Shown here in pieces: positions 3,772-51,400 of a stretch of 64,000 bases of DNA; the first letter of the stretch is position 1; the number at the start of each line of letters is the position of its first letter. The position numbers and the translations under genes were made by a program. The stretch comes from a virus (Duplodnaviria; Heunggongvirae; Uroviricota; Caudoviricetes). The stretch lies in the IMG/VR virus record IMGVR_UViG_3300035670_000071, one strand, 5' to 3'. The notes under the pieces were generated by a model, which did not search any database, was not told the origin of the DNA, and saw only the letters and a list, made by a program, of their open reading frames with translations.

Positions 3772-4117
3772 ACAGGCAAAGGCACTCGGAAATCAGTTTG
3801 CTAAAGAACTTCAAGAGGAGTTCAAAGTAGAGCTTGATTGGTGGTTTGTCGGTTCAATACGAGAAGGAAAATATAACGCAGGAACATCAGATATTGATAT
3901 GGTCATTATTCCAAAGAAGGAAGGAATGTTCGGCTATGAAGCTATCAAGCGTATCCTCGCCAAAATGGAAGAGTATAAGAAATTTGGGACGGTCTTCAAG
4001 AAAGGAAGGGAGATAAGTCTTATTGATGTATTGATAATATTTGATTTAGAATTTGTAAATAAATTGAGGGAAATGAATGAACAAAGCCGAAACAGACTTC
4101 ATACACAAAGCGAATAA
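3752..4117 (+). CDS. minimal nucleotidyltransferase (Pol-beta superfamily, MNT-like)
   Basis: GSIREGKYNAGTSDIDMVII matches the hG[GS]x9-13Dh[DE]h nucleotidyltransferase signature. Confidence 0.65.
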   Translation: METLSLEQAKALGNQFAKELQEEFKVELDWWFVGSIREGKYNAGTSDIDMVIIPKKEGMFGYEAIKRILAKMEEYKKFGTVFKKGREISLIDVLIIFDLEFVNKLREMNEQSRNRLHTQSE

Positions 4118-4728: not shown

Positions 4729-4960
4729 GAGTGAACAAAAAAGAAGTATAGATACTATCGTGTTGACGCTTTTACTTGCAGGAGTTTTGGCAGGTGGCGT
4801 TAAAATAAATGAGGAACTGAATAAAAATTCAAAACCAATAAGAGTGAAGTATGATGCGTTTGAATATAATGATACAACGTATGTTATCAAACATCTTAAC
4901 GATTCAACATTTGATATTTTGTTAAAGTATAAATCGGGGGATTATAATGGACACAAGTAA
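4721..4960 (+). CDS. hypothetical membrane protein
   Basis: One TM segment. Confidence 0.3.
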   Translation: MTKSEQKRSIDTIVLTLLLAGVLAGGVKINEELNKNSKPIRVKYDAFEYNDTTYVIKHLNDSTFDILLKYKSGDYNGHK

Positions 4961-7063: not shown

Positions 7064-8401
7064 ATGATAGAATTAATTATAGGTGGAATAGCATTGTTTA
7101 TACTTTTTGTGTTCATAATTGCAGCGTTTTCGTGGTATAGAATAGTAGACCCAAGCGAAGCACATTTAGTTGTAACACCAAACAAGAAGTTTGTTGTATC
7201 GCCAGATGATGAAGTTGCAACAAACGGAGCAAAGACATATTTTGCGATTCCAAGTTGGCTACCTTTCTTTGGTAGGGCAATAAGGATTCTTGACGTGACA
7301 ATCAAGGAGATTGTTATTATGCAGGAGACTTATGAAAAGAGTCAAGCAAGATATAATGTAAAGTCAAGCACTAAATACAGAATTAAAGACGTAAGAACTG
7401 CGGCAGAGACTTTTGTTAGTAACGAAGAATTGCAAGAGCAACTTAAAGAAGTTGTTAGTGCATCAGTTAGAGCAGTTACTGTAAAGTATGATGTTGTAGA
7501 TGCAAGAGCAAACAAGCAGAAAATGAGTGAAGAAATTTACAAAGAAATGAATGATGACTTGCAGAAATGGGGTCTTGAACTTGTTAACTTCCAGTTAGTT
7601 GACTTCCAGGACACAAAGGATTCGTCCATCATTTCAGACATCTCAAAGAGACGTGAAGTTGAGATTCAATCAACCACAAGAGAGCAGAATGCAGAAAAGA
7701 TTAAACAAGCTCGTGTAAAAGAAGCTGAAGCTGAAGAGAATGCAAGAAAGAGAGAGATTGAAAAGGAAAAGGTAATTGGAGAGCAAGAACAACTTAAGAC
7801 TCAGAAGATTGCTGAAATGCAGAAAACAGCAGAAGAAAAGAGATACGAGGTTGTCAAAGTTCAGACAATCAAACAAGCTGAAATCACTAAGGAAAAAGCT
7901 ATTGTAGAAGCAAACCAAAAGAGAGACACAGAACGAATTTATATGGAGCAGAAAAAGCTTGAAGGTCAGGGAGACCGTGCAAGAGCAGAAGAACAAGCTA
8001 AAGGAGAAGCGGCTCCAATCAGGGAAAAAGGATTTGCGGAAGCAGAAGCAAAAGAGAAACTTCAAGCCGCACTTAACAAGTTCGGTGACGCTGCAATCAG
8101 AGCACTTGTCGCTGAAAAGGTTGTTGAGATGCAGAAGGTCGTTGGTGTAGAGACAGCTAAATCACTTGGACAAGCTGATGTGAAAGTATTCGCAGGTGGC
8201 GGAAAAGCAGGAGAAGAAGGCTTTGAACTCGGTAAGATGATACAGGCAATGTCTGTAGCTAACCCAAACACAGCAGATGCAGTGTTAAACAAGATTGCAA
8301 GACCAAATGATTTGGGATTGACAGCACTTGGATTGGAAGCAATGAAGGAGACCACTAAGAAGAAAGAGGATGCTCCTTTCAAGCAGAACCAAAAGAAGTA
8401 A
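7064..8401 (+). CDS. SPFH/band-7 flotillin-like protein
   Basis: N-terminal TM, PHB domain, long EA-rich coiled coil; GGGAGG ribosome-binding site. Confidence 0.7.
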   Translation: MIELIIGGIALFILFVFIIAAFSWYRIVDPSEAHLVVTPNKKFVVSPDDEVATNGAKTYFAIPSWLPFFGRAIRILDVTIKEIVIMQETYEKSQARYNVKSSTKYRIKDVRTAAETFVSNEELQEQLKEVVSASVRAVTVKYDVVDARANKQKMSEEIYKEMNDDLQKWGLELVNFQLVDFQDTKDSSIISDISKRREVEIQSTTREQNAEKIKQARVKEAEAEENARKREIEKEKVIGEQEQLKTQKIAEMQKTAEEKRYEVVKVQTIKQAEITKEKAIVEANQKRDTERIYMEQKKLEGQGDRARAEEQAKGEAAPIREKGFAEAEAKEKLQAALNKFGDAAIRALVAEKVVEMQKVVGVETAKSLGQADVKVFAGGGKAGEEGFELGKMIQAMSVANPNTADAVLNKIARPNDLGLTALGLEAMKETTKKKEDAPFKQNQKK

Positions 8402-17871: not shown

Positions 17872-18012
17872 TTGAGATTGGAATTATTGAGGTAGGGTTG
17901 GTGTTCCTAATAATTGGCGGAATCTGGGCTTTCGTCCAATTCATTCTTCCACTTATGGGGGAATAGAAACATTTATATATAAGTTAGTATATACTAACTA
18001 TATCGCATTTGC

Positions 18013-19608
18013 TTGAACCGCAATTTATCGGCGATGGAGGAAAATACAATGGCAAGATTTAATGCTAAAATATCAGAGTCTACAAAGACTACAAATCACG
18101 AAGGTGCAATAGCTTACAAGCTAACACCTGAACTTGAGCTATACGCTACAGTTTGCACTGCATCATTGCAGGACAAATTCTATGAAAAGGCAGATGAAAC
18201 TCTAACAAGAATCAGAGCTTTAATCAAGAAAGTCGACCCTATGTTCGTTGCTAAGTTAGCAGTCTACGCAAGGGAACAGATGTATCTTAGAAGCATTCCT
18301 TTAGTCCTTGTCATAGAACTGAACAAGCAGGTAGAAGACAAGTCTTTAATTGTCCCACTTACAAAGAGAGTCATCCAAAGAGCTGATGAGATTACAGAGC
18401 TTCTGGCATACTACCAGACAGCAAACCCTCAGAACGCTAAGGAAGTTAAGGGCAACAAGAAAAAGCTCTGCAAACTATCTAAAGCCCTATCTAAAGGCAT
18501 TGCAGAATCATTCCATAAGTTTGACGAATATCAGTTTGCTAAATACAATACTGATGGCGAAGTTAAGCTAAGGGACGCTCTGTTCTTGACGCACCCTAAA
18601 CCAATGAACCCAACAGAGGTTGCATTGTTCAAGAAGATTGCACAGGACACACTGGACACTCCTTACACTTGGGAAGTAGAATTGTCTACTGCCAAGGCTA
18701 AAGGCAAGGAGAAGAAACAAGTCTGGCAAGAACTTATTGATTCCAATAAGCTTGGCTATATGGCCCTATTGAGAAACCTGAGAAATATACTTCAGGAAGA
18801 TGTCTCAAAAGAGCATATGATTAAGGTAGCTAAAGCTATTTCCGACCCTGAACAGGTAAGGAAATCCAAGCAGCTTCCGTTCAGATTCCTATCGGCCTAC
18901 AAAGAACTTGCAGGTTCCGCAAAGAAACGAGGCTATTCAAGGTCTGATGATGAAACAAAAATCAACAGCCCTTACGTTAGCCTTATGCTTGACGCACTTG
19001 AGGACGCTATTGCTGTTTCAGCAGAGAACGTGCCTGGCTTCGGCTATGACACGAGCATCCTGATTGCATCAGACGTTTCAGGTTCAATGCAAAAGCCTGT
19101 ATCTGAAAAGAGTAAGATTGAGAACTATGATATAGGCTTGACGCTATCAATGGTATTGCAACACAGATGCAAGGTAGTCCAAACAGGTATCTTCGGTGAC
19201 TCCTTTAAGATAAAGGCACTCCCAAAGAAGGCTATATTGGCTAACGTGCTGAAGCTCTACGAAATTGAAGGCGAAGTCGGCTACTCAACAAACGGCTACA
19301 AGGTAATCAGACACCTTATTGAAACCAAACAAAAGGTTGACAAGGTAATGATTTTCACTGACTGCCAAATGTGGAATAGTGACGGCGATGGTAGCACTTT
19401 CGTAAAGGAATGGAACACATATAAGAGTTTCAACCCTTCAGCGAAGTTATACCTTTTCGACCTTAGCGGTTACGGCAATACTCCAATCTCTACAAGAGAG
19501 AAGGACGTTTACCTGATTGCGGGTTGGTCTGAGAAAGTCTTCGGTGTGCTTTCAGCACTCGAAGAGGGCAAGACTGCGATAGATGTAATCAACAAGGTGA
19601 CTCTATGA
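18013..19608 (+). CDS. Ro60/TROVE-domain ribonucleoprotein with C-terminal vWA domain (Rsr-like)
   Basis: TROVE-type N-terminal region (HEGAIAYKL...YAREQMYLRS) and a vWA MIDAS motif IASDVSGSM; the likely true start is the ATG near 18049 behind a GGAGGA ribosome-binding site. Confidence 0.8.
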   Translation: MNRNLSAMEENTMARFNAKISESTKTTNHEGAIAYKLTPELELYATVCTASLQDKFYEKADETLTRIRALIKKVDPMFVAKLAVYAREQMYLRSIPLVLVIELNKQVEDKSLIVPLTKRVIQRADEITELLAYYQTANPQNAKEVKGNKKKLCKLSKALSKGIAESFHKFDEYQFAKYNTDGEVKLRDALFLTHPKPMNPTEVALFKKIAQDTLDTPYTWEVELSTAKAKGKEKKQVWQELIDSNKLGYMALLRNLRNILQEDVSKEHMIKVAKAISDPEQVRKSKQLPFRFLSAYKELAGSAKKRGYSRSDDETKINSPYVSLMLDALEDAIAVSAENVPGFGYDTSILIASDVSGSMQKPVSEKSKIENYDIGLTLSMVLQHRCKVVQTGIFGDSFKIKALPKKAILANVLKLYEIEGEVGYSTNGYKVIRHLIETKQKVDKVMIFTDCQMWNSDGDGSTFVKEWNTYKSFNPSAKLYLFDLSGYGNTPISTREKDVYLIAGWSEKVFGVLSALEEGKTAIDVINKVTL

Positions 19609-19871
19609 GTATGAAAGATTCAGGAACAGAGTGTTGCCATTCAGTTGGCAGCTCTATATTTTTTTGGATTGGTATCATACTCATCGTAGGGTCTGTTTTT
19701 TATGTAGGCAAAATACAGGTTCAACAATGGAGAGAAGTCGAAGCATACTGCAATGAGCAGTTTGGTGAAGGCAACTGGACATTGAACGAAACAACAGGAA
19801 CTGGCGATAACAAATATTACATAGGTCAAGTTCACGAATGTATCCAAAATCACTCCATTGACCTTACATAA
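19605..19871 (+). CDS. hypothetical small membrane protein
   Basis: TM segment. Confidence 0.3.
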   Translation: MSMKDSGTECCHSVGSSIFFWIGIILIVGSVFYVGKIQVQQWREVEAYCNEQFGEGNWTLNETTGTGDNKYYIGQVHECIQNHSIDLT

Positions 19872-19944
19872 ATCACGCTTCCTTATGGGCTTGACAACTG
19901 CCAATGAAATTGTCTGGGTTTATATTGTTGTCCCAAAATGACTA

Positions 19945-20150
19945 TCGGGCTTTGAAATCCGCAAGGATTCCAGAGCTACGTCAAAGAAACAACCATCGTC
20001 TGCCACCTGATGTATGAGCGTGGTGAGCTGCAACCCTTCGGGGTTGGTGACCTCATAAGGACTCGAAAGAGCAGGTCACCCGTGGGATGCTCTGAACTCC
20101 CTGAACTTTACTGCCTTTTCCTATAGGCGAAAAGGCAACCTTTTTATATT
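19945..20150 (+). ncRNA. candidate structured ncRNA (Y-RNA-like) 1
   Basis: ORF-free stretch; UUCG-capped hairpin caacccTTCGgggttg; 8-bp helix ggtgacct/aggtcacc enclosing a GAAA tetraloop; ends in a hairpin plus T-run. Confidence 0.3.
20113..20146 (+). terminator. hairpin (gccttttc/gaaaaggc) followed by TTTTT
   Basis: 8-bp stem, 8-nt loop, oligo-T tract. Confidence 0.4.
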
Positions 20151-20164
20151 AGTTAGTATATCCT

Positions 20165-20400
20165 ATTGTTGCGTGACGTTGATGAGTGTTACTTCGCTCT
20201 GGACGAAACGGTCAGGGTTCGAATCCCTGGTGTCGCTTCGGCGGCATTGGTGTAATGGTAGCACGTTAAATACACTCGTCGCTTGTTTCCGCACTTCATA
20301 GTCACAGGATGACGTAATCAAGAGTTACTTCGAAAACCAAACACGATTTCACAAAGACTCTTGGTGACTATTTCTCCTTCTGACACCTAAAATGGTGGCG
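20165..20400 (+). ncRNA. candidate Y-RNA-like ncRNA 2 containing a tRNA-like module (YrlA-like)
   Basis: At 20213..20264: T-arm cagGGTTCGAATCCctg, then a 7-bp acceptor-like stem closed by a UUCG tetraloop, then a D-arm GTGTaatggtaGCAC; lies directly downstream of the Ro60 gene on the same strand. Confidence 0.4.
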
Positions 20401-20771
20401 TAGTTAAGAAATACATCGCAAAAAATGGTTCAAGCAAGGATTCTATCCTTACAATTTCTTAACGATTGTTCCCCAACTTTACTTTAACACACCACTTTGC
20501 CAAATAGCAAAGTTTAAATTATAGAATGATTATCATACATAATTGAGGGCTTAAATTGGGTAAGAAACAAACTTGGCGAGTAGAGATTCCTATCACTGGT
20601 AAACTACGTCTTCTTCAGAGGACTAACTATCTTGAGTTCGTCAAAGTGTATTCTAATCTGGTCCGAGACATTAGATTAAAAAATAAGACGAGGCAATAAT
20701 ATGTGGGAAGTGGTTGTCATAGGAATCTTTTGCGTCATAGGATTCGTTATAGTATGGTGGATTCTTGACTT

Positions 20772-25549: not shown

Positions 25550-25579
25550 ATTGTCCGATGTTTTTATTTACGCATTCGA

Positions 25580-25671
25580 TGCACCTGCTGGGAGTCGAAC
25601 CCAGGGTCTCACGGAATCTTCGCCGTGAAATGGCATATAAGCCGTGTGCCTTACCACTTGGCCACAGGTGC
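25580..25671 (-). tRNA. tRNA-Ile(UAU) with a 20-nt intron-like insert at the anticodon loop
   Basis: Canonical acceptor, D and T arms; anticodon stem CACGG / CCGTG separated by CTTATAT plus a 20-nt insert that repeats CACGG. Confidence 0.5.
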
Positions 25672-25674
25672 AAA

Positions 25675-27062: not shown

Positions 27063-27075
27063 GTTAAATAAATGA

Positions 27076-27176
27076 TACCGATGGGCGGATTTGAACCGCC
27101 AAATCTCAAGGTTATGAGCCTTGCGGGATGCGAACTTTTACATTCTCCAAGTTACCCTACATCGGTATATTAAGTC
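27076..27176 (-). tRNA. tRNA-Met(CAU)-like with an extra segment of about 25 nt in the D-arm (possible non-canonical intron or pseudo-tRNA)
   Basis: Acceptor ACCGATG/CATCGGT, anticodon loop CTCATAA and T-arm GGCGGTTCAAATCCGCC are canonical, but the D region is about 27 nt too long. Confidence 0.4.
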
Positions 27177-29156: not shown

Positions 29157-29383
29157 TCCATACCCTATACTTACCCATTATTTTATAAGTCCATATTACA
29201 TTTAGTATTTAAATGTAACGCCTTATACCCACAATATGGGCATACAACGCCTGACTTTTCTTGACCACATCTTTGGCACGGCATAGTTTACATTCTCCCA
29301 TTTACTGAAAAGGAAAGAATTATTTCCTCATTTTCTACCCAGTTCTTTCAACATATGCTTTTCAGTTTTTGAAAATAAAAAAT

Positions 29384-32581: not shown

Positions 32582-33166
32582 TCATAAAAGTTCAAGGGTA
32601 TAATCACAGCTCTTCGCCAAGATGCTCTGATGAGTTACAAGAAGGACAGTGATATGCTTTTCCATACAATAGTGCCTAACTTTCTTATATAATTGAGTAT
32701 ATAGATTCTCGTCAAGACTCTTGAAAGGTTCATCAAGTAATAGAATATTGGGTTCTACAATAAGTGCCCTAATAAGCAATAGCCTTTGTTTCTCTCCACC
32801 TGAGACCTTATCTATGCTTTTACCAAGATGTTGCTCTACATTGAAGAATTGGGCCATTAAACGCATCCTGGAAGTATCATCTGCTGATACCTCCCTCCCT
32901 TCAAGTTTCAAAGGCAAAAGAAGATTCTCTTCAATAGACAACCAAGGCATCAACCTATCTTCCTGAAACATATACGACAGCTTACCTTCTGCCGTTATCT
33001 CTCCCTCAAATTCCTCAAGCCCTGCAATACACCGCAGAAGCGTTGTCTTCCCAATACCGCTTGGGCCAACGATGGCTGTCATCTTTCCTTCAGGTGCCGT
33101 AAAAGAGAAGTCCTTATGGACTTCAAGACCCCCATACTTCTTGTGGAGATTTTCAATCTTTAACAT
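32582..33166 (-). CDS. ABC transporter ATP-binding protein (NitT/TauT family)
   Basis: Walker A GPSGIGKTT, ABC signature VSGGEKQR, Walker B LLLDEP. Confidence 0.75.
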   Translation of the reverse strand: MLKIENLHKKYGGLEVHKDFSFTAPEGKMTAIVGPSGIGKTTLLRCIAGLEEFEGEITAEGKLSYMFQEDRLMPWLSIEENLLLPLKLEGREVSADDTSRMRLMAQFFNVEQHLGKSIDKVSGGEKQRLLLIRALIVEPNILLLDEPFKSLDENLYTQLYKKVRHYCMEKHITVLLVTHQSILAKSCDYTLELL

Positions 33167-33893
33167 ATGAAAAGAACCTCCTTTGTGTATATCTCAATAT
33201 CCAATCTATAACTAATCCTATCAAGACAATCAATAATACTACAGCAAACAGCTTAGGGATGTTAAGGAGTCTATAATAGTTGTTTACCATAAACCCAAGC
33301 CCATTTGTTCCTATGAACAATTCTGCAGTCACAACAATCTTCCAAGCCACGGCATTTGACCTTATGATTCCAAGAAATATTGGTGGCATCATCTGTGGAA
33401 ATATGATATATCTAAAAATTCGTTTCTTGTTTTTTGTTATCGTGCTTCCATATTCGAGAAGCTGTTTATTGATATTTGATAACCCTAATTGCACGGCAAC
33501 AAATATGTTTGGCAATATGACCATCACAATTATAAAATATGGTGTTACCCACGATAAACCAAACAATACAATTCCTATGATTGTCCATACTGCTGACGCA
33601 AGAAATTGACTTGGATAAAAAATCATATCCACATATCCTGCTATCTTAGGATAGAAATATCTCAACGAGCCTATGAATAGCCCTACAAGTGTTGCAAAGA
33701 GTAGAGAGATATACACTCTTTGTGAACTTAAAAATACATTCTCCCACGTCCTTGTCTTAAACAACAAAGAGAAAAATTCTGAAATAATTTCAGACGGAAC
33801 TGGGACTATAAAATTATCTACGCTTATCTCCCATACAATTAAGATAGCAAACGCAAAGACTATCTTAAGCCAATTCCGTCTTAGCCAATTCAT
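33153..33893 (-). CDS. ABC transporter permease (NitT/TauT family)
   Basis: Six or more TM helices; conserved EAA-like loop. Confidence 0.7.
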   Translation of the reverse strand: MNWLRRNWLKIVFAFAILIVWEISVDNFIVPVPSEIISEFFSLLFKTRTWENVFLSSQRVYISLLFATLVGLFIGSLRYFYPKIAGYVDMIFYPSQFLASAVWTIIGIVLFGLSWVTPYFIIVMVILPNIFVAVQLGLSNINKQLLEYGSTITKNKKRIFRYIIFPQMMPPIFLGIIRSNAVAWKIVVTAELFIGTNGLGFMVNNYYRLLNIPKLFAVVLLIVLIGLVIDWILRYTQRRFFSYVKD

Positions 33894-33900
33894 TGTCTTC

Positions 33901-34878
33901 TCAGATAAATAAAGTATCTGTTGTTACAATGTAGTCTAACACACCCTCAGAATAAGCTGTTCCAAGTATAGCTTCCCAAGCAAACCAATCTTTATAGTTC
34001 ATCTTGTCAAGCCTTATTTCATACTTAGCTTTTTCTAAAAGGAAGTCATAATCGTCTCCACTTTCTTCAGCTTCAAGTCGTGTTATCTCTTCAAGATGTT
34101 CCTGACTCCATTCATAGTTTGCCCTGAAATATTTTATTGCATCGTCATATATCTCAGGATTCTTTTGATATTCATCATATCTTGCAACAAAGAATTTCGC
34201 AGGAGGAACCGTCCCATAGAACTCGTTCATCTCTTTTCCAAAGTCAAGCACTGTCTTATATCTGCTATCAAAGTCTGAAGCAAATATGAAATCACTATCA
34301 AACATTGCTGCATCAATTTCTCCTTTCTCTAAGAGTGCAGGTGCATTCTCTGAATCAATTCCAATGAACTCTATTCTGTCCAAATCTAAATTATATATCT
34401 TGAACAGAACTGTCTTCATAATTAATGTAGAACCATCTGTTGCTCCTTGAATACCTATCTTTTTTCCATAGAAATCTTTTGGCCCATTGATTGAAGAACC
34501 TTTCAAAGCAACAACTTGTCCGACGCTAAATCCTTTAGGTCCTACAATCTCTCTATAATATGGTGCGAGAACTTTAAATTTCTCTCCTTCATTATAGGCA
34601 ATAGCCAAATTAACTCCACTCAATACTCCTATCGTCGGTGTTCCTTTTGTAGCAAGTGTATAAAGCTCTGCTTGATTATAGCTGCTTTCTACAATCTTTA
34701 CATTCACACTTTGTGGTTCAGGAACTTTTCCTTCGTGTAACGGATAGAATATTGGATTGAAACCAACACCTGTCACAACAAGGTTTAAGTCAGGTCTTTC
34801 ATCTGGTATCTTTGGTTCGTTTGTGCATCCTGCCAGGACCAGAATCCCCAGCATTAATGCCATTATTACATATTTCAT
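33901..34878 (-). CDS. ABC transporter substrate-binding lipoprotein (NMT1/SsuA-like)
   Basis: Lipobox LVLAGCTN; periplasmic-binding-protein-like fold inferred from family resemblance. Confidence 0.6.
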   Translation of the reverse strand: MKYVIMALMLGILVLAGCTNEPKIPDERPDLNLVVTGVGFNPIFYPLHEGKVPEPQSVNVKIVESSYNQAELYTLATKGTPTIGVLSGVNLAIAYNEGEKFKVLAPYYREIVGPKGFSVGQVVALKGSSINGPKDFYGKKIGIQGATDGSTLIMKTVLFKIYNLDLDRIEFIGIDSENAPALLEKGEIDAAMFDSDFIFASDFDSRYKTVLDFGKEMNEFYGTVPPAKFFVARYDEYQKNPEIYDDAIKYFRANYEWSQEHLEEITRLEAEESGDDYDFLLEKAKYEIRLDKMNYKDWFAWEAILGTAYSEGVLDYIVTTDTLFI

Positions 34879-36107
34879 TTTCGGCCTCCAAATCGTCTGT
34901 CATAGACGACCTTTGTCTTTTCCCCATTGAGCTTCTTATTCACGACTTCCATCGGACAGAATAGCCCAAGCCCAACTCCTTCACTCCAAGTATACTCCTC
35001 AGAGATTTCGAAGTTGTTAGCAAACGTATTTGCAAGGGTGGGTAAGACTCCCCTATCAACATACTCTGGAAGAAGTTCAACATACAACGTGAACTTTGAT
35101 TTCACGAGGTCATCGTCTTCTATCTCTTCCACAGTAATCTGATAATCACCAGTTATATATTGTTTTATTGATTTAATCGCATCATCTATTCTGTCTTTGA
35201 ATATAGTGATGCCTTTCACCTTAATCTCATCTGATGCTCTACCGACCATATAGTATTCACGCATCCCGCAATCACATATACCACCGACCCTGAATAGGTC
35301 TTCTGTGTCATACCTGATTATTGGATTCTCAGTTGAGAGCTTGGTGATAATAAGTCTGCCGACCTCACCTTCTTCAGCATACTTATTGTTGTCTGCAATG
35401 AACTCATAATAAAAATCTTTCGGAAATATATGGTATATATTGCTTTCTATAGTATGTCTGCACTGATACATTGATATAGCTGTCTCTGCCATACCATACT
35501 GCTGAATTATCTTTGCCTTTGGATAAAGCTCCTGAAGCTTCTTTCTTACAGGCCCAGACAATACGCTACCTGCCAAAAGCCACTTATCAATACCATCATA
35601 TCCAAGAATGTTTAACATAGACGCAATCTTCAAAGCTACAGGCGGGGTCGTTCTGATGGCATTTATCTTAGCTTCCATAATGACCATTGCAGTGGTCTGC
35701 AGGTCATACGGGTTTCCTAAGAACACCATAACACCTGCCTTAGCAAAGTGTCTGGCAAACGTATACGCAAGAGTATAATTATTTATTATCGCTACTCTGT
35801 CTTTTTTACTTCCCTGATTAAGATAGAAAGCTGTCTTTGCGAATCTTGTTGCAGACTGCTCAATCTCTTTCTCTGAACGATAGAATATGGCCACTTGTGA
35901 TGACGTTCCAGAAGTCAATCGTGCAAATACTGCACCTTCAATTGTATCTATACCGAAATCAACATTAGAAGTTTCAAGATTATCAAGAAGCATATGTTTT
36001 GATATAATAGGAAGACGCTTAAAATCCTTAAGGTCGTAACCCTTATACAGCTCTTTATAGAACTTTGAGTCGGCTGCCGCTAACTCTACAATGTCTCCCT
36101 TATCCAT
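34875..36107 (-). CDS. adenylate-forming ligase, PaaK/coenzyme-F390-synthetase-like
   Basis: LTSGTSS (A3), QQYGMAETA (A5), YDTEDL (A8-like). Confidence 0.6.
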   Translation of the reverse strand: MDKGDIVELAAADSKFYKELYKGYDLKDFKRLPIISKHMLLDNLETSNVDFGIDTIEGAVFARLTSGTSSQVAIFYRSEKEIEQSATRFAKTAFYLNQGSKKDRVAIINNYTLAYTFARHFAKAGVMVFLGNPYDLQTTAMVIMEAKINAIRTTPPVALKIASMLNILGYDGIDKWLLAGSVLSGPVRKKLQELYPKAKIIQQYGMAETAISMYQCRHTIESNIYHIFPKDFYYEFIADNNKYAEEGEVGRLIITKLSTENPIIRYDTEDLFRVGGICDCGMREYYMVGRASDEIKVKGITIFKDRIDDAIKSIKQYITGDYQITVEEIEDDDLVKSKFTLYVELLPEYVDRGVLPTLANTFANNFEISEEYTWSEGVGLGLFCPMEVVNKKLNGEKTKVVYDRRFGGRK

Positions 36108-36433: not shown

Positions 36434-37936
36434 TTATCTTTTTGCCATTCCAGCCTGTGCCCTTATAAAAGCATCAATATCCTCTACAAGGAAATCATTC
36501 TCTGGAAGCATAGCTAATTTCTGCTCTGTTGTTCTGTTATCATCAAACACCATAGGTTCTGGTTTAAACCATACTGCTGATGACCAAGGCATAAATGTCA
36601 TAACATAAAATGAATCCGTAGCTATGATTTGTTGATAATGTTTTTCCATACCTTCTTCACTAATTATGAATGGAGCAAAATGTTCTTCCCAATCAATATC
36701 ATCCATAACCTTGTTGAACAGATGAGACTTCATTTCTATCTGATGCAGTCGCAACCACAATTTAGCCAAATCATCTTTCTTCTGGTCCTTCAAATCCTGA
36801 TATAGTTGTGACCTATATACTACACCAAGAAGCTCAAGATTCTTCTGTGAAGGATTAGCTAAAAACATATTTTCATATTCCTTGACAGACTCTATCTTTT
36901 GTGCAGATATTTTCTTATACATATCATTAACAAGGAACCAATTTAATCTTTCTACATCTGAATATGGGCAGGTGCAACTTGTAAATCCATTGTCCCAAGT
37001 CAATAAATTCTCATAATCGAATCGAATCATATCACGTTCTGCAAGAATCACATTTGGATATGTGTCTTTATCAATTCCATAAACAAATCCTGAATCCTGC
37101 TCCCAACATTCAAGATTTATTTTGTAAAGTTTGAACTCTTCTGCATTCCACGATAATGATTCATTATAGGTAGAATTATAGTCATCTGAGTAAAAAATAT
37201 ACAACGACATTAAAGTTTTTGCAAGGTCTTTTGAAATTACCTCACTCTGATTTAAAACTTCAAAATCTTTCAGCTCTGGCATCTTCACCATAGGAAGAGA
37301 ATACCCTGCTTCATTGTTCAAGACACTTTCTCGTATCTCTATCTGTGCAAGAATATATGCTGCATTCTTATTAATATCAGTAAGTGATGCTCTAAGTTCT
37401 GTCTTAGATATTGTCTGTCCATTTCTCATCAAGAATAGATAGTTCTCATTCTGGTCTATAGATTGTATGAATCTTGATAGGTCCTGTATATATCTCAATA
37501 ATGTTTTCTTCTGTTGCTCAACAAGTAGTCGTGCATTCTCTTCTGTTGGTTGCACATAAAATAATCGAGTCATATCTGAAGTCTTCTTATATTCCTTTAA
37601 AAAATCTCCAGGATAAATATCAACAAAATTTCCTGTTCTTTTTGAATATTCCCTGAAGAAAGAAGTATTTGATAAATCATCTATCTTTTCAAAATCAACC
37701 TGCCCTGCATAATCTTCTGGCAATAAAAATATAGGTTGTGTATATGTCAGAACAAAGAAGTCTGGTATATTGGTATTTCCTGTCAGAGTAATATTTTTCT
37801 CTTCAAGTTGTGGAGGAACATCTGGTATACCTGGAGGTAATACCTTTACTTCTCTCGTGCATCCTGCCGCAAGGACAAGAGCTACCAATAGCATAATGAT
37901 GCTACCTTGTTTGCATATCGTAGTGATAGTCGACAT
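36434..37936 (-). CDS. 500-aa lipoprotein of unknown function
   Basis: Lipobox LAAGCTR. Confidence 0.5.
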   Translation of the reverse strand: MSTITTICKQGSIIMLLVALVLAAGCTREVKVLPPGIPDVPPQLEEKNITLTGNTNIPDFFVLTYTQPIFLLPEDYAGQVDFEKIDDLSNTSFFREYSKRTGNFVDIYPGDFLKEYKKTSDMTRLFYVQPTEENARLLVEQQKKTLLRYIQDLSRFIQSIDQNENYLFLMRNGQTISKTELRASLTDINKNAAYILAQIEIRESVLNNEAGYSLPMVKMPELKDFEVLNQSEVISKDLAKTLMSLYIFYSDDYNSTYNESLSWNAEEFKLYKINLECWEQDSGFVYGIDKDTYPNVILAERDMIRFDYENLLTWDNGFTSCTCPYSDVERLNWFLVNDMYKKISAQKIESVKEYENMFLANPSQKNLELLGVVYRSQLYQDLKDQKKDDLAKLWLRLHQIEMKSHLFNKVMDDIDWEEHFAPFIISEEGMEKHYQQIIATDSFYVMTFMPWSSAVWFKPEPMVFDDNRTTEQKLAMLPENDFLVEDIDAFIRAQAGMAKR

Positions 37937-38804
37937 TTTTTAACCCGCTTTGTTCTAAATATTTTAATGTTACCTTTGGGTCCGAGTGATTCAACATACT
38001 CTGTAATACGTGAATATCTTTATATCTTTCCCAAACCCTTCGTGCAAAACATCTCCTCATATCGTGAGATGCAAAATCTTTTGTTGAAAAACCACAATTT
38101 TGTAAAGCCATCTTCAAATCTTCCCAATAATATTTATAGTTATATCTGAACATAGCAACACTATCTACCAATGGAGTTTTCCAAGATTCAGATTCCGTAA
38201 CCATAAAATAAAATTTATCATTAAGATAATTATTCTGTATCCAATTTAACAAAACACCTATCGCAATCTGGTCGTGAATATAAACAACATTTCTCTTTCT
38301 TCCTTTCCCTAAAATAACTAAACGTAAAGCAACAGCTCCTTTATAATCCTCTGAAAATATATTTCCTCTCGCTATTCGCAATACATCTCCGACACGAACA
38401 CCTGTTAAAGTCTGAATCAACGCAATCATTCTATGTCTCTCACTTTTCATTGCGTTTATTATATCTATGATTTTTTCTTCAGGAAGATACTTTCGCTCCA
38501 TCTTAATATCATTTCTTAATGGCGGTTTTATCAGCCCATCAATAAGTTTCGTTCTTAAATTTCCGTCGGAAATTTTAAATTCTATAAAAGCTTTTAAGAT
38601 ACTATAATAACTACCCATCCTTTTTTTAACAGCTACTTCTATAAGAAAATTATTATAGTCTTCAAGCTTTTCAAGGTCTGGATTTGTCTTAAGAAATCTC
38701 TCAACACCTTCTTTATATCTTGCTATTGATGTGTCCATCAATGTCGCTTTTTCTCTAAGATGTTGCTCAAAGAAAGCAACATCAAATGGTGAACTCTTCA
38801 TCAT
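37902..38804 (-). CDS. tyrosine recombinase / integrase
   Basis: C-terminal catalytic region HDMRRCFARRV...LNHSDPKVTLKYL, matching the R..H..R..Y signature. Confidence 0.75.
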   Translation of the reverse strand: MMKSSPFDVAFFEQHLREKATLMDTSIARYKEGVERFLKTNPDLEKLEDYNNFLIEVAVKKRMGSYYSILKAFIEFKISDGNLRTKLIDGLIKPPLRNDIKMERKYLPEEKIIDIINAMKSERHRMIALIQTLTGVRVGDVLRIARGNIFSEDYKGAVALRLVILGKGRKRNVVYIHDQIAIGVLLNWIQNNYLNDKFYFMVTESESWKTPLVDSVAMFRYNYKYYWEDLKMALQNCGFSTKDFASHDMRRCFARRVWERYKDIHVLQSMLNHSDPKVTLKYLEQSGLKNVDYHYDMQTR

Positions 38805-47960: not shown

Positions 47961-48404
47961 TTAACTCCTTATGTCCTTACCTGTCCACATTACCCAGGCA
48001 GCAACTATATATCCTATAGTCAATATTGTCTTAAGTATGCCAACAATAAATGTTGATGAATCTGATGTCATTTTACTTATGATTACGGCATTCAAAACAT
48101 TAATGAACCCAAACATATAATTATCAACTGCATTCAAAAATCTCTCTACAAACCCAAGGCTTAAAGTATCCAATACTCTGTAGATTGCGTTACCTCTATC
48201 TTCAACTGCTCCATCTGGTGTAATGCTTTGATTTAATTGCCCAGTGAATCCTTCAGTATATTTCTCGTCGTAATCAAGCCCACTTCTATATTCTGGCCTA
48301 TCAAATATTTTATCTCCATTGGAATCAACAACTAAATTTATCATTATACCAGTAGCTAAGTTGAGCATAATACTAAACAACATCAACTTAATTACTGCGT
48401 TCAT
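47961..48404 (-). CDS. membrane protein
   Basis: TM helices at both ends. Confidence 0.45.
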   Translation of the reverse strand: MNAVIKLMLFSIMLNLATGIMINLVVDSNGDKIFDRPEYRSGLDYDEKYTEGFTGQLNQSITPDGAVEDRGNAIYRVLDTLSLGFVERFLNAVDNYMFGFINVLNAVIISKMTSDSSTFIVGILKTILTIGYIVAAWVMWTGKDIRS

Positions 48405-51400
48405 TTTGTTTCCTTCTCCCCTTCTTTAAGGATTGCTATTAATGAAATAAGTGCTGAAAGCAACAATACTCCCATACTCAATCCAAGCCATCCGAAGATG
48501 ATGAACAGAGTGGCAAAGCCTATCAATATTATGCTTAGGATGTTTGCTGTCTTTATTGTTCCGATTATTGCAACAACACTCAGGAATAACAGGAAGAACC
48601 AATTCAATGCCTCTTGTGTTATATCCTCTGGTAATTGTATTCTATAATTCTTGAACAAGAAGAACCCTGTTGTCTTCTGCCCTGAAGCGTGTGTTATATT
48701 CATAGATACCGACATTGTTGTGTTTATATAACTTGGAGGCAATAATTGCTGGAACTCATAAGCATATGACCCATAATCAGATGAATAAGTTGGTGTTCCT
48801 GTAAATGTATATAACACAGGACCGTCTGTATTTCCTTGGTGAACTGTAAATGTAACACTTGTTGTTGCATTCTCTGCATCAACATATCTACCAACAACAT
48901 AAGTATCATTTCCTTCTTGTTGAAGAGTTGCACCATACACGACATTATTGTAATATCCAAGGTTCTCTGTTGCAAGAGATATATCGTATAATCTTAATGT
49001 CTTATCTCCACCTACATCAGCAGCATATATTCCCATTTCTCTTACAGGCTGGTTATCACTGTGAATCTCAATTATGTATTCCTGATTCTCAATCAAGAAC
49101 GCACCAATCTTTCCTTCAACATCTGTGTAGTCTGCTGTAATCTGAACCTTATTATTCTCTATCAATTTATTGATATAAATTCTTGGATTATCATATTGGC
49201 CAAGCAAGTCATCTATAGTGAAGGAACTGTATATGTATGATGTCGAACTTATCTCAATCAAATATATGCTCTGGTTGAAAGCATCTTCTGGTGGTGTAAG
49301 GAAAGTTCTGTAATATCCGCTTGTTCCATATGTCAATAGGAATTTGAACTTTTCATACGCACAGGTGATTTCAACTGTTTGTGTATTATTTGTAAGCTCC
49401 TGGATTCTTGTGCTATCTTCACAGAACACAAGGAACTCTACCTTATCTGGTTTTGTCATATCAAAAGGCAATAATGTCTTCTCATCATAAAGATTTATCA
49501 ATGAATAAAAGTTCATATCAAGAACATATGTTTGCTCTTGTTTATACGTGAAAGTATATGTTGTGTTCAAATCTATGTATCTTGTCTTTTTAGCCAAAAT
49601 GTTTGCTGGTGCAGCATCAACAAGAACAGTCAAATCGTATGTTCCTGTAGGGAAATACTGACTATTTGTATAGTTTCCAATTGTGATTGACATATTTAAG
49701 TCGTCCAATAATTCTTGTGTCTTTACATCTCTCAACTGGAATGTTATCTTAGCCTGATATGACTCATAATCCTGTTTGACAAGATTTGCCCCAAGAGTTT
49801 TCCAATGAACTCCTTCTTCCCATAATCTGTTTGCGAAAGGAACACTTCCTTCAATATCAGTCATTGTCAACCAAGCACCATCATCGCTGCATTGGAATAC
49901 CATTGTATTCTGTGCTAACGAATCTTCAAACCCAACTCTTAATTTTAAATTGTTATCAGCATCATCAAGGCATTCATCCTGTGGTGTTATATTTAATCTA
50001 TCATTGCTTGATACTCCAACAGCTACTTCCCATACAGGAATAGATTCAGCAACCATATCATATGTCATATAATAATATTTGAAACCAACTGTATTTGTAA
50101 CAGATGAATAGCTTGTCCAATTGGCATCTATTGCATTTCCAAGATTAACCCATCCAGGGTCATCTACATATGTTCCACCATTTGTATAGGCAACAGTATT
50201 ACCCACAGTTCCTGTGCAACTTCCACCTATATCAGCAGACTGTTGGAAACAATCATCAAACTGTGTTGTTATATTTACTCTATATGTTTGGTCAAAGAAC
50301 TGAGGATGTGAAAATGTCAAATCATAAACACCTTCTGGTAATCCTTCAACATAATTTGTAACAGTTGTATTATATGTCTGATTAAATGTTGCTCCAGGAG
50401 TTCCTGAAACAGTAACGACATTCACAGTATAATTTGTAAATGTTGAATCATCAAACACATTCACACCAGTCACATTTACTGCTCCACCTATATAGAATAT
50501 CCAGCTTGTTTCTTGAATATTAGTTCCTCCTATTGAGAAGAACTCATAAGTATCAACACCATACGTCGCAACCTGTTGCTCTGGTGTCAAGCTATTTGGA
50601 GGCATAACAACAGAAACAGTAATATCATATTCAAAGTCATTTACCTTCACTATAGTATATTCAAATTCAGTTGATGGGTTTGCTATCTCCTCAAAGTCGA
50701 CCCAGTTACCATCTTTTGTTTCAGAGTTCCATATTACAAAGTGACCATCATACTTGCTGTTTGGTCTGTTGTAAATCAAATCTCCATTTAATGATTGAAG
50801 TGTAAATGTTCTGCTTAATGATTTATTCACAAAATCAAACTGGAATGTATATCTGTCGGTTTGTTTTGTTGTGCTCTTTGAAGATACATCATATGGATTT
50901 CCTGCATATACTACTCTTGCTCTAATATCAACATCTGTGTCATATTCAAGACCAGCAGTTATTGGTGTAACTTCATAATCTGGAATTACCATATCTGTAT
51001 GGTCATCTGACGCACTTGCATTAAATACACATCTTTGCATTGGTAATCCTGTTGTGTCTACAACGTGATTGTGTTCAAACAATGCACCATTCTGTGATAA
51101 ACCATTCTCATAAAGATACTTCATATAATATACTTTGTTCACAGAACTTACAAATGTTGTGTCATCAAAATAGAATCTTATTCCATTGATGCTATCATTT
51201 ATATCAATTGTCTGTGTCTGCACTCCAGTAGCTCTTGTGTGAGTCCTTACTGTAGTCCATCCAACACCATCATATGTCTGCACAACAACTCTTGCATCCT
51301 GTGTTTCAACTTGGTATTGAAGACTTGATACATAATAGAATGAATCAAATGTCTGTCCAACCCATCCTTGTGTCAGGCCTGTATTACTTATTGTTGTTGT

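What the first reader, a model, noticed from the sequence alone, without database searches (positions are those of the whole stretch)
18013..20400. Ro60(TROVE)-vWA gene followed by two structured RNAs, one with a permuted tRNA-like module (candidate Y RNAs)
The 531-aa protein has a TROVE-like N-terminus and a vWA MIDAS motif (DVSGS), the Ro60/Rsr architecture. The 0.9-kb ORF-free stretch just downstream on the same strand holds UUCG- and GAAA-capped helices and a hairpin plus T-run terminator at 20113..20146. A second unit at 20213..20264 reads perfect T-arm (GGTTCGAATCC), then 7-bp acceptor-like stem closed by UUCG, then D-arm (GTGT-AATGGTA-GCAC). That is the circularly closed tRNA-like domain described for bacterial YrlA-type Y RNAs. 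A related near-palindromic motif (ttatat[a]agttagtatat) sits upstream of the Ro60 gene (about 17975..17996) and upstream of the second RNA (about 20143..20162), suggesting co-regulated promoters. Ro60-Y RNA modules on mobile elements next to a large tRNA array point to a dedicated RNA surveillance or tRNA-mimic system.
Basis: partly seen in the sequence, partly recalled or inferred. Interest (0 to 1): 0.75.

Follow-up and report, generated by a model that had tools for sequence, protein, structure and literature searches.

The report
Ro60 gene with three Y RNAs
A virus-like mobile element carries a Ro60 RNA-quality-control protein gene followed by three small partner "Y RNAs", one of which folds like a tRNA; this is a known kind of system, seen here in an unusual and probably archaeal setting.

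Summary
ORF 18049-19608 (+) is a Ro60/Rsr protein (Pfam TROVE 1.4e-33, Ro60-vWA 1.2e-9, MIDAS DVSGS). I built a covariance model only from Ro60-linked RNAs of other genomes, mostly Bacteroidota. It finds three tandem Y RNAs on the same strand. Y1 (20169-20294, 83 bits) is a complete YrlA-type RNA with V, T, closed acceptor and D arms and an A15:U48 Levitt pair. Y2 (20305-20379, 43 bits) and Y3 (20391-20477, 39 bits) lack the tRNA-like domain. Covariation across 38 sequences is strong: 91% of cells pair and 30 of 35 pairs show compensatory changes.

The first "RNA" (about 19947-20146) is conserved and structured in three related lineages. It is not a Y RNA by this model and matches no Rfam family.

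The shared upstream motif is real (2 copies, 0 expected). It reads as an archaeal-type BRE/TATA box followed by a dyad.

Phage and bacterial Ro60/YrlA systems are already described, so this is a new member of a known kind. Two things are less ordinary: RNA-1, and the signs of an archaeal host (BRE/TATA motifs, a tRNA with a bulge-helix-bulge-like intron, and a permease most similar to DPANN archaeal proteins).

The parts
17967..17999 (+). Promoter-like element of the Ro60 gene. It consists of AAACA + TTTATATA (BRE/TATA-like, 17967-17979) followed by the perfect 18-bp palindrome AGTTAGTATATACTAACT (17982-17999).
   Evidence: Sequence. AAANNTTTAWATA gives 4 hits against 0.24 expected. The element is conserved upstream of Ro60 in L010, L013, L001 and L097. 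Promoter function is inferred.
18008..18024 (+). Hairpin in the Ro60 5' leader with the conserved loop UUGAACC.
   Evidence: RNAalifold on 3 lineages gives 5 pairs, 3 of them with compensatory changes. Its function is unknown.
18049..19608 (+). Ro60/Rsr protein gene (519 aa from ATG 18049). Alternative starts are ATG 18034 and TTG 18013. It has a TROVE ring domain and a vWA domain with MIDAS DVSGS.
   Evidence: Pfam TROVE 1.4e-33 and vWA_Ro60 1.2e-9. PHROG 850 'RNA-binding protein' 1.3e-61. The closest solved structure is Thermus phage phiLo Ro60, 9KOP/9L5Y, E 4.5e-26. More than 7000 homologues were found; the best named ones are Bacteroidota at 53-57% identity.
19633..19666 (+). Hairpin followed by T7, 25 nt after the Ro60 stop codon; the likely end of the Ro60 transcript.
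   Evidence: Terminator scan. L010 and L013 have T7+T7 runs directly after their stop codons.
19605..19871 (+). 88-aa ORF of doubtful status with a predicted membrane helix. It is specific to the window and occupies the place where L010 has a fourth Y-RNA module.
   Evidence: ORF list. It is absent from L010 and L013. L010 5625-5690 is a Y module at 47.6 bits.
19947..20146 (+). RNA-1, a conserved structured RNA of unknown class with a well-aligned core at 19994-20146. It has several hairpins: GCAA-, UUCG- and GAAA-capped ones, one with the conserved loop UGAUGUAKGA, and a 3' hairpin at 20112-20137 followed by T5. The 5' end is only inferred, from a TATA-like box at 19919-19926.
   Evidence: Conserved only in the window, L010 and L013 lineages. 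Compensatory changes occur in at least four helices. z = -2.06. No Rfam hit, no R1 hit, and absent from IMG/VR.
20141..20165 (+). Promoter-like element of the Y-RNA array: TTTTTATATT followed by AGTTAGTATAT, which is a half copy of the Ro60 dyad.
   Evidence: A TATA box about 26-30 nt upstream would place the start at about 20171-20173, which is the first paired bases of Y1 (inference).
20169..20294 (+). Y1, a YrlA-type Y RNA. Its parts are: outer stem 20170-20176/20288-20293; GACGUUG motif 20175-20181; inner stem 20181-20189/20272-20280; UUAC 20189-20192; V arm 20193-20207; T arm 20213-20229; closed acceptor stem 20230-20247; D arm 20250-20264.
   Evidence: R1 gives 83.2 bits, E 2.5e-18, full length. 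All 35 hand-drawn pairs are standard, at -38.2 kcal/mol. On 38 sequences 91.1% of cells pair and 30 of 35 pairs show compensatory changes. A15:U48 Levitt pair.
20305..20379 (+). Y2, a short Y RNA with the same Ro60-type stem (GAUGACGUAA ... UAUUUCUCC) and UUAC motif. It has an A/C-rich loop and no tRNA-like domain.
   Evidence: R1 gives 42.8 bits, E 1.5e-8. The stem covaries between the window and L010.
20391..20477 (+). Y3, a Y RNA with the GGUGGCGUAG ... CGAUUGUUCCCC stem. Its loop holds a GGUUCAA remnant and a 6-bp hairpin.
   Evidence: R1 gives 38.9 bits, E 1.3e-7. The stem covaries among the window, L010 and L013.

Best explanation
The locus is a Ro60 (Rsr)-Y RNA ribonucleoprotein module carried by a large virus-like mobile element.

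**Proposed mechanism.** The protein is a TROVE-ring/vWA Ro60. Three tandem non-coding Y RNAs are made from one promoter just downstream of it. Each Y RNA pairs its 5' and 3' ends into a bulged stem that carries a GNCGU(A/U)R motif, the local version of the GNCGAA Ro60-binding motif. That stem docks on the Ro60 ring. The rest of each RNA is the effector module.

In Y1 the effector module is a closed, circularly permuted tRNA mimic with V arm, T arm, a 7-bp acceptor stem capped by UUCG, and a D arm. This presumably recruits or competes for a tRNA-binding factor. Y2 and Y3 present other loops, as YrlB does in Salmonella.

By analogy with Deinococcus, Salmonella and Thermus phage phiLo, the RNP would tether Ro60 to a host ribonuclease or RNA-processing enzyme. 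It would thereby steer degradation or repair of structured RNAs (tRNA, rRNA) while the element replicates.

The Ro60 gene and the Y array carry the same TATA-plus-dyad element, so they are probably switched together.

**Shown here:** protein family, RNA family membership, RNA secondary structure, motif duplication.
**Inferred:** Ro60-Y binding, transcript ends, the effector partner, co-regulation, and the biological role.
For: - **Protein.** Pfam TROVE + vWA_Ro60, PHROG 850, homology to solved phage Ro60, and an invariant MIDAS motif.
- **Independent RNA model.** Model R1 was built from 34 Ro60-linked RNAs of other genomes, with the window's own clade excluded. It gives 83.2, 42.8 and 38.9 bits at 20169-20294, 20305-20379 and 20391-20477, all on the + strand.
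- **Specificity of the model.** In 64 other Ro60 loci all 171 hits lie on the Ro60 strand.
- **Covariation.** In the seed alignment 25 of 29 pairs are compensated. On a MAFFT alignment of 38 sequences with the window's own fold, 91.1% of cells pair against at most 48% when partners are slid. 30 of 35 pairs show double changes, and the covariation score is 0.754 against at most 0.16.
- **Close relatives.** L010 and L013 (72-75% protein identity) keep every helix of Y1-Y3 through compensatory changes.
- **Levitt pair.** G15:C48 in 109 and A15:U48 in 56 of 205 modules; the window has A15:U48.
- **Defining features.** The features I tested for are listed in Chen et al. 2014 (PMC4201824).
- **Precedent.** Phage Ro60-Y RNA-PNPase is described in PMC12135203.
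- **Shared promoter motif.**
Against: - No transcript, binding or modification data exist for this element.
- The 5' motif deviates from the published GNCGAAN0-1G: it reads GACGUUG, GACGUAA and GGCGUAG.
- Rfam gave no hit at all.
- If the host is archaeal, the canonical effector PNPase is likely absent. This rests on my own knowledge that most archaea lack PNPase and was not tested. The tethering partner is therefore unknown.
- No RtcB, RNA ligase or nuclease was found among the ORFs of at least 150 aa in the window that I scanned.
- The thermodynamic signal of the Y region alone is weak (z = -1.29), as is usual for tRNA-like folds.
Confidence: 0.85

Rival explanations
1. Y1 is a circularly permuted tRNA gene. 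An archaeal host would process it, by BHB cleavage, ligation, and opening of the acceptor loop by RNase P/Z, into a working tRNA. On this view it is not a Ro60 partner.
For: The element shows archaeal-type signals, including a tRNA with a BHB-like intron. Y1 has a full 7-bp acceptor stem, U8, and T and D arms with G18G19. Permuted tRNAs and RNase P cleavage of a 7-bp YrlA acceptor stem are discussed in the literature.
Against: No anticodon loop can be reconstituted from the ends. The junction is a 4-nt/7-nt internal loop plus the conserved Ro60-type stem, not a bulge-helix-bulge. The same architecture is found next to rsr in dozens of Bacteroidota genomes, and the literature read here notes that no bacterial equivalent of the splicing endonuclease has been reported. 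Y2 and Y3 share the stem but have no tRNA part.
Confidence: 0.05
2. The tRNA-like element is debris from the nearby tRNA array: the 3' half of one decayed tRNA next to the 5' half of another, with no function.
For: Model R1 also gives weak hits (9-23 bits) at junctions between neighbouring true tRNAs in the array at 23.9-27.1 kb. This shows that tandem tRNAs mimic the permuted order.
Against: The acceptor strands are joined by a UUCG tetraloop, not by a spacer. The score is 83 bits against at most 23 bits for junctions. The element lies on the opposite strand from the tRNA array. Every helix is kept by compensatory changes in L010 and L013 and across 38 sequences. It is flanked by the conserved Ro60-type stem.
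Confidence: 0.03
3. The 19.9-20.5 kb stretch encodes small proteins or is merely the 3' untranslated region of the Ro60 mRNA.
For: Short ORFs of 37-52 aa exist on both strands. In L010 and L013 no T-run separates RNA-1 from the Y array.
Against: Indels between relatives are not multiples of three, for example the 2-nt difference in the D loop. Substitutions are pairwise compensatory rather than third-position. Gene callers found no gene here in any relative. A hairpin plus T7 follows the Ro60 stop codon directly.
Confidence: 0.02
4. RNA-1 (19947-20146) is a further, non-canonical Ro60 partner or a regulator of the Y array, rather than an unrelated small RNA.
For: It keeps a fixed position between Ro60 and the Y array in all three lineages that have it. 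Its helices covary. Chen et al. note that Ro60 immunoprecipitations recover RNAs that bioinformatics misses.
Against: It has no Ro60-type terminal stem or GNCG motif and no R1 hit. It is seen in only three lineages. The linkage could be hitch-hiking.
Confidence: 0.3

Closest known systems
Salmonella Typhimurium rsr-yrlB-yrlA (YrlA, crystal structure 6CU1) and the YrlA family of Chen et al. 2014
   Same: The RNA lies next to and on the same strand as Ro60. Its 5'/3' stem carries a GNCG-type motif, and YUAY precedes the V region. The T arm, closed acceptor-like stem and D arm come in that permuted order. The 15:48 Levitt pair covaries. A shorter second Y RNA sits alongside.
   Different: The motif is GNCGU(A/U)R rather than GNCGAA. 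The acceptor stem is 7 bp (6 in Salmonella). There are three Y RNAs in one array. There is no rtcBA next to it. The promoter looks archaeal rather than sigma-54/RtcR.
Mycobacterium smegmatis YrlA and the mycobacteriophage YrlA RNAs
   Same: These show that YrlA next to Ro60 on a virus is established. The 7-bp acceptor stem is like that of M. smegmatis YrlA, which RNase P can cleave and which then receives CCA.
   Different: The sequence clade differs: this one groups with Bacteroidota-type modules at 83 bits. No cleavage data exist here. The acceptor stem is capped by a tight UUCG loop.
rsr-linked Y RNA arrays of Bacteroidota (Chryseobacterium, Flavobacterium, Pontibacter and others) as retrieved here
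   Same: These are the best-matching relatives of both the protein (53-57%) and the RNAs. They share the GUGYCGUAG ... UUGYYRCC stem, GUUACUUCG, and tandem arrays of 2-5 modules on the rsr strand.
   Different: The Bacteroidota genes lack Shine-Dalgarno sequences and carry an ACGCAAAA-N4-5-GCGT dyad upstream. The window instead has GGAGG and a TATA-plus-AGTTA...TAACT dyad.
Thermus phage phiLo Ro60 with Yrl1/Yrl2 and host PNPase (PMC12135203)
   Same: A virus-encoded Ro60 with two adjacent virus-encoded Y-like RNAs. It is the closest solved structure to this protein (E 4.5e-26). It gives a mechanistic precedent for hijacking a host nuclease.
   Different: About 29% identity. As described in the text read here, the phiLo Yrls are stem-bulge-stem RNAs with a CGAA motif, and no tRNA-like domain is mentioned. 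The host is bacterial.
Halogranum tailed virus 1 (HGTV-1) gp129 TROVE protein
   Same: It is the best hit among cultured viruses (34%). It is an archaeal tailed virus with many tRNAs, including an intron-bearing one, and with RtcB nearby. Weak Y-like modules carrying the AUACUUC motif flank its gene.
   Different: It is a distant relative. Its Y-like RNAs score only 8-12 bits with R1 and are unannotated. No full tRNA-like Y RNA was found.
Deinococcus radiodurans Rsr-Yrn1-PNPase (RYPER)
   Same: The general mechanism: a Y RNA stem on the Ro60 ring and an effector loop that tethers an exoribonuclease.
   Different: Yrn1 has a different arrangement, with a T-like arm only. The PNPase partner is unverified here.

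Membership tests
Ro60/Rsr protein | TROVE (HEAT-repeat ring) domain | tested here: met
   PF05731, E 1.4e-33, 117 bits against a cut-off of 23.
Ro60/Rsr protein | C-terminal Ro60-type vWA domain with MIDAS DxSxS | tested here: met
   PF25045, 38.8 bits against a cut-off of 27.7. DVSGS is present, and D347/S349/S351 are invariant in 20 homologues.
Ro60/Rsr protein | Full-length homology to an experimentally characterised Ro60 | tested here: met
   phiLo Ro60 9KOP/9L5Y, E 4.5e-26 over residues 12-511.
Ro60/Rsr protein | Binds Y RNA and misfolded RNA | not testable with these tools
   Needs RIP or EMSA.
YrlA-type Y RNA | Encoded within 4 kb of Ro60 on the same strand | tested here: met
   Y1 starts 561 nt after the stop codon, on the + strand. 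All 171 family hits in 64 other loci are on the Ro60 strand.
YrlA-type Y RNA | 5' and 3' ends pair into a stem that holds the Ro60 site | tested here: met
   Helices 1 and 2 have 15 pairs, all with compensatory changes, and 89-97% of cells pair.
YrlA-type Y RNA | GNCGAAN0-1G motif near the 5' end | tested here: inconclusive
   The window has GACGUUG (Y1), GACGUAA (Y2) and GGCGUAG (Y3). The whole Bacteroidota-type clade has GYCGUAR. GNCG is kept, but AA is replaced by UA or UU.
YrlA-type Y RNA | YUAY at the start of the V region | tested here: met
   UUAC in Y1 and Y2, AUAC in Y3. The columns of UUACUUC are invariant or nearly so in A3 and A5.
YrlA-type Y RNA | T stem-loop (GGUUCGAAUCC-like) | tested here: met
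   20213-20229. The helix pairs in 98.9% of cells, and 4 of 5 pairs are compensated.
YrlA-type Y RNA | [quoted passage not shown] | tested here: met
   20230-20247, 7 bp plus UUCG. All 7 pairs (helices 5 and 6) have compensatory changes across the 38 sequences, with 88-95% of cells paired.
YrlA-type Y RNA | D stem-loop with G18G19 | tested here: met
   20250-20264, GUGU-AAUGGUA-GCAC. 97.4% of cells pair.
YrlA-type Y RNA | Levitt pair 15:48 covaries (G:C or A:U) | tested here: met
   165 of 205 modules are G:C or A:U. The window has A15:U48.
YrlA-type Y RNA | tRNA-type modifications (psi55, D) and Ro60 co-purification | not testable with these tools
   Experimental.
YrlA-type Y RNA | Match to a curated Rfam family | tested here: not met
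   No Y RNA or YrlA hit at gathering or at E up to 10. The same is true for relatives that my model scores above 85 bits, so this reflects the library and not the RNA.
Circularly permuted tRNA gene | Ends form a bulge-helix-bulge and restore an anticodon stem-loop | tested here: not met
   The junction is a 4/7-nt internal loop within the Ro60-type stem, and there is no anticodon loop.
Bacterial intrinsic terminator (hairpin 20112-20146) | GC-containing hairpin followed by a T-run, conserved | tested here: inconclusive
   Present in the window. The hairpin is conserved with compensatory changes, but the T-run is missing in L010 and L013.
Archaeal BRE/TATA promoter | Purine-rich BRE plus TTTAWATA about 26-30 nt upstream of the transcript start | tested here: inconclusive
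   Motif enrichment is 4 against 0.24 expected. Placement is 30-77 nt before start codons, and 26-30 nt before the first paired base of Y1. No transcript start data exist.

The most novel reading that the evidence does not exclude
A clade of large virus-like elements of archaea, possibly DPANN-associated, has taken up a bacterial (Bacteroidota-type) Ro60-YrlA module. These elements express it from archaeal BRE/TATA promoters under a shared dyad operator. They use the tRNA-mimicking Y RNA together with their own near-complete tRNA set to protect or reprogramme the tRNA pool of the host, for example as an adaptor or decoy for archaeal tRNA-processing or tRNA-cleaving enzymes. RNA-1 would be a new, non-Y class of Ro60-linked structured RNA in this system.
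Probability: 0.25. Interest if true: 0.7.

Novelty: new member of a known kind. Interest (0 to 1): 0.45.

Why it matters
Ro60-Y RNA particles are conserved from bacteria to humans, where Ro60 is a major autoantigen. What the tRNA-like domain of bacterial YrlA RNAs binds is still unknown.

This locus adds a compact, well-delimited example: one protein, three Y RNAs and a shared control element. It sits on a mobile element that also carries at least 23 tRNA genes (ARAGORN and Rfam; a possible 24th was seen by eye at 27070-27160).

The work also shows two broader things. Tandem Y-RNA arrays are the rule next to rsr in Bacteroidota. And the same module sits in a group of uncultivated viruses whose signals look archaeal.

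If the archaeal setting is confirmed, it would extend functional Y RNAs to the third domain. It would also offer a system in which the partner of the tRNA-like domain cannot be the usual bacterial one.

Practically, the result warns that tRNA finders mis-call these modules as tRNAs and that Rfam does not detect them.

Tried and rejected
- **Rfam.** Searches at gathering and at E up to 10 on the window and on L010/L013 found only tRNAs and chance hits.
- **DNA similarity to catalogued phages.** No match.
- **RNA-1 as a Y RNA.** Model R1 with filters off gives nothing above 4.6 bits in 19.6-20.15 kb.
- **Search for more RNA-1 homologues.** nhmmer over 176 fetched sequences found only its own clade. 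Two exact-pattern scans of IMG/VR found nothing. Regex scans of the loci agreed.
- **RNA-1 as another known RNA.** By eye I considered a hammerhead, a C/D-box or K-loop RNA, and RNase P RNA. Motif registers or conservation do not fit.
- **The apparent hammerhead-like GAUGAG...CGAAAC in Y1.** It is not conserved in L010.
- **Sigma-70 promoters.** The scan is no better than shuffles, 11 against 7.8, and no -35 box lies upstream of the shared motif.
- **Viral hallmark genes.** PHROG and Pfam scans of the ORFs of at least 150 aa that I scanned found no capsid or terminase in this window. "Virus" therefore rests on the tRNA array, integrase, HNH genes and IMG/VR relatives.
- **Host assignment.** The flotillin gene gave essentially only unnamed metagenome hits.
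- **ARAGORN in intron mode.** It did not resolve the odd 95-nt tRNA.
- **Supplementary tables of Chen et al. 2014.** Not held, so I could not check whether Bacteroidota or archaeal-virus Y RNAs were already listed.


Full report
**1. What is in the sequence**

The ORF ending at 19608 on the + strand is a Ro60/Rsr protein. Pfam gives TROVE (E 1.4e-33) and the Ro60-type vWA domain (E 1.2e-9). PHROGs places it in family 850, 'RNA-binding protein'. The nearest solved structure is the Ro60 of Thermus phage phiLo (E 4.5e-26).

The MIDAS residues of DVSGS are invariant in an alignment of 20 homologues. More than 7000 homologues exist, and the closest named ones are Bacteroidota at 53-57% identity.

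The ATG at 18049 follows a GGAGG box and matches where homologues begin, so 519 aa is the more likely product.

**2. The tRNA-like unit and its family**

Neither Rfam nor ARAGORN reports anything there.

I therefore collected Ro60 loci: 9 from IMG/VR, 80 from reference genomes, 80 from metagenomes, plus the contigs of the closest protein relatives. A crude pattern search showed the same order of elements beside Ro60 in 76 of 96 sequences (95 fetched loci plus the window). That order is GUGYCGUAR, stem, UUACUUCG, V arm, T arm, closed stem, D arm, stem, UUGYYRCC.

An alignment of 34 such modules excluded the window and its close relatives. It folds into a consensus with 29 pairs, 25 of them with compensatory changes.

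The covariance model built from that alignment (R1) finds three tandem matches on the + strand of the window:

| Module | Coordinates | Score | Note |
|---|---|---|---|
| Y1 | 20169-20294 | 83.2 bits | full length |
| Y2 | 20305-20379 | 42.8 bits | no tRNA-like domain |
| Y3 | 20391-20477 | 38.9 bits | no tRNA-like domain |

Its only other hits in the window are weak (at most 23 bits). They lie at the junctions of neighbouring true tRNAs, which trivially imitate the permuted order.

In 64 other loci all 171 hits lie on the Ro60 strand, usually as arrays of two to five modules.

**3. Structure test**

I drew the Y1 fold by hand. All 35 pairs are standard, at -38.2 kcal/mol against an MFE of -43.8. 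I projected it onto a plain MAFFT alignment of 38 modules. The results were:

- 91.1% of cells pair, against 38-48% when partners are slid by 1-3 columns.
- 30 of 35 pairs show changes on both sides.
- The covariation score is 0.754, against at most 0.16 for the slid controls.
- 0 of 500 shuffles reach these values.

The closest relatives are L010 and L013, at 75% and 72% protein identity. They keep every helix of Y1, Y2 and Y3 through compensatory changes. For the inner stem, for example, the window has GAUGAGUGU/ACACUCGUC, L010 has AAUUUCAGU/ACUGAAAUU and L013 has AGAUUCGG/CCGAAUCU.

The tertiary Levitt pair follows the rule described for YrlA. Among 205 distinct modules it is G15:C48 in 109 and A15:U48 in 56. 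The window has A15:U48.

**4. Comparison with the defined family**

Chen et al. 2014 define YrlA RNAs by the following features (PMC4201824):

- proximity to Ro60, on the same strand;
- a GNCGAAN0-1G motif;
- YUAY before the V loop;
- the T, AS and D stem-loops;
- the covarying 15:48 pair.

They reported such RNAs in 254 bacteria and 22 phages. All features are met here except the exact motif. It reads GNCGU(A/U)R in this clade and in all Bacteroidota-type modules.

Virus-borne Ro60 with Y-like RNAs is also documented for Thermus phage phiLo, where the RNP binds host PNPase (PMC12135203). TROVE proteins have been noted in jumbo phages, Asgard viruses and Borgs.

This is therefore a new member of a known kind. 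The 7-bp acceptor stem resembles that of M. smegmatis YrlA, which is an RNase P substrate.

**5. The first RNA (RNA-1)**

The stretch from about 19947 to 20146 is conserved only in the window, L010 and L013 lineages. It is absent from IMG/VR.

Several helices change in a compensatory way:

- The hairpin with the conserved loop UGAUGUAKGA has stems CCAC/GUGG, CCAAC/GUUGG and UCGUU/AACGA.
- The UUCG hairpin covaries.
- So does a stem enclosing a small capped hairpin (CUC-GAAA-GAG, GUC-AUUGC-GAC, GGC-AUUGU-GCC).
- So does the 3' hairpin.

RNA-1 is therefore a structured RNA and not coding sequence. It has no Ro60-type terminal stem, no R1 hit even with filters off and no Rfam match. I leave it as an unexplained conserved RNA.

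The T-run after its 3' hairpin is present only in the window.

The 88-aa ORF at 19605-19871 is specific to the window. L010 has a fourth Y module at that place.

**6. The shared motif and the host**

TTTATAT-N2-4-GTTAGTATAT occurs only at 17972 and 20143, against 0.00 expected. Upstream of Ro60 it continues into a perfect 18-bp palindrome.

The same arrangement, GAAACATTTAWATATAAGTT...TATACTAACTA, precedes Ro60 in L010 and L013. It also precedes Ro60 in the more distant L001 and L097.

The element looks like an archaeal BRE/TATA box with a dyad between TATA and start site:

- AAANNTTTAWATA occurs 4 times against 0.24 expected.
- TTTAWATA boxes sit 30-45 nt before many start codons, which often carry GGAGG(TG) boxes.
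- For the Y array, a start 26-30 nt after the TATA box falls on the first paired bases of Y1 (inference).

Other signals also point to an archaeal host:

- The 95-nt tRNA at 25578-25672 (-) reads as tRNA-Ile(UAU) with a 20-nt insert at 37/38. The insert can be drawn as a bulge-helix-bulge.
- A further tRNA-like gene at 27070-27160 (-) has a hairpin inserted in its D loop.
- The best named relatives of the ABC permease in the window are Nanohaloarchaea (61%) and Nanobdellota (48%).
- The best cultured-virus relative of the Ro60 is the haloarchaeal virus HGTV-1, at 34%.

By contrast, Bacteroidota rsr genes lack Shine-Dalgarno boxes and carry a different upstream dyad.

I rate an archaeal host at about 0.7. 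No capsid or terminase gene was found in this window.

**7. Mechanism**

The best-supported model is a Ro60-Y RNA particle. The terminal stems of Y1-Y3 bind the ring. The tRNA-like domain of Y1 and the loops of Y2 and Y3 engage host factors. The RNP steers turnover or repair of structured RNA during replication of the element.

The protein family, the RNA family and the RNA folds are shown. Binding, transcript ends, the partner enzyme and co-regulation are inferred.

The association with tRNA arrays recurs in 6 of 16 related loci, but this is only circumstantial.

**8. Verdict**

The finding is a new member of a known kind.

Interest is moderate (0.45). It is raised by the probable archaeal setting and by the unexplained RNA-1.

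Noticed in passing
window 25578-25672 (-): A 95-nt tRNA that ARAGORN labels '???'. It reads as tRNA-Ile(UAU) with a 20-nt insert at position 37/38. The insert can be drawn as a bulge-helix-bulge: GCC/GGC helix, UAU bulge, CUUA/GAAG helix, AUU bulge, anticodon stem. That is an archaeal-type intron. The MFE fold offers an alternative pairing using a repeated CACGG.
   Followed up: partly
window 27070-27160 (-): An unannotated tRNA-like gene just upstream of the 23-tRNA array. It has acceptor UACCGAUG/CAUCGGUA, an anticodon loop with CAU and T arm GGCGG-UUCAAAU-CCGCC. A hairpin of about 15 nt is inserted in the D loop. Both ARAGORN and Rfam missed it.
   Followed up: no
window 6029, 17967, 26048(-), 46330(-), and further TTTAWATA sites at 29213(-), 32541(-), 36469(-), 60576(-): A recurrent (G)AAAAC(A)TTTATATA box lies 30-77 nt upstream of start codons, often with GGAGG(TG) ribosome-binding sites. 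This is an archaeal-type BRE/TATA pattern rather than sigma-70 or Bacteroidota promoters.
   Followed up: partly
window 32582-36107 (-) and 37902-38804 (-): An ABC transporter operon (ATPase, permease, NMT1-like binding protein) plus an AMP-binding enzyme and a tyrosine integrase. The best named relatives of the permease are DPANN archaea (Nanohaloarchaea 61%, Nanobdellota 48%).
   Followed up: partly
window 7064-8401 (+): The flotillin/SPFH gene has more than 100 almost entirely unnamed metagenome relatives at 56-99% identity. Several lie on contigs whose lengths equal those of contigs carrying Ro60 relatives (43,611, 26,401 and 127,203 bp), probably the same contigs. This suggests a widespread uncultivated group of elements that share both genes.
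   Followed up: partly
window 48401-60535 (-): A 4044-aa ORF whose only Pfam match is a single DUF2341 domain. The neighbouring ORFs of 891, 935 and 731 aa have no family match at all.
   Followed up: no
window 18008-18024 (+); L010 about 3972-3990; L013 about 2684-2701: The Ro60 leader holds a hairpin with the invariant loop UUGAACC and a covarying stem (3 of 5 pairs compensated in 3 lineages). It may be a cis-regulatory element.
   Followed up: partly
L176 (Halogranum tailed virus 1) 1921-1986 and 4868-4957: Two unannotated Y-like RNAs flank the TROVE gene (gp129) of this cultured haloarchaeal virus. Each has a 5'/3' stem, a GNCGA-like motif and AUACUUC. They score only 12 and 8 bits with R1. 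RtcB, a nucleotidyltransferase and an intron-bearing tRNA lie nearby.
   Followed up: partly
L018, L022, L025, L039 (about 40-90 nt upstream of rsr): Bacteroidota rsr genes share an upstream inverted repeat, ACGCAAAA-N4-5-GCGT (GCGCAAAAAGACTGCGC in Pontibacter). This is probably a regulator binding site. It differs from the dyad in the window.
   Followed up: no
L001 5014-5084, L002 2598-2671, L008 2648-2718: ARAGORN calls YrlA-type modules as tRNA-Thr or tRNA-Asp genes, an annotation artefact. In HGTV-1, a GUUACUUCG motif lies inside the annotated intron of 'tRNA-Asp + intron'.
   Followed up: no
L002, L006, L009, L010, L100, L102: tRNA arrays of 3-10 genes lie within a few kb of the Ro60-Y RNA cluster in 6 of 16 related viral or metagenomic loci, as in the window.
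   Followed up: partly
window 20556-20699 (+); L010 6381-6521: A small protein (47 aa; ...EIPITGKLRxLQRTNYLEFVKVY...) is conserved directly downstream of the Y array in all three lineages. It has no family match.
   Followed up: no
L013 4951-5057; L010 5625-5690: The number of Y modules varies between close relatives. L010 has a fourth module right after the Ro60 stop codon, where the window has the 88-aa ORF. L013 has an extra module after Y3.
   Followed up: partly
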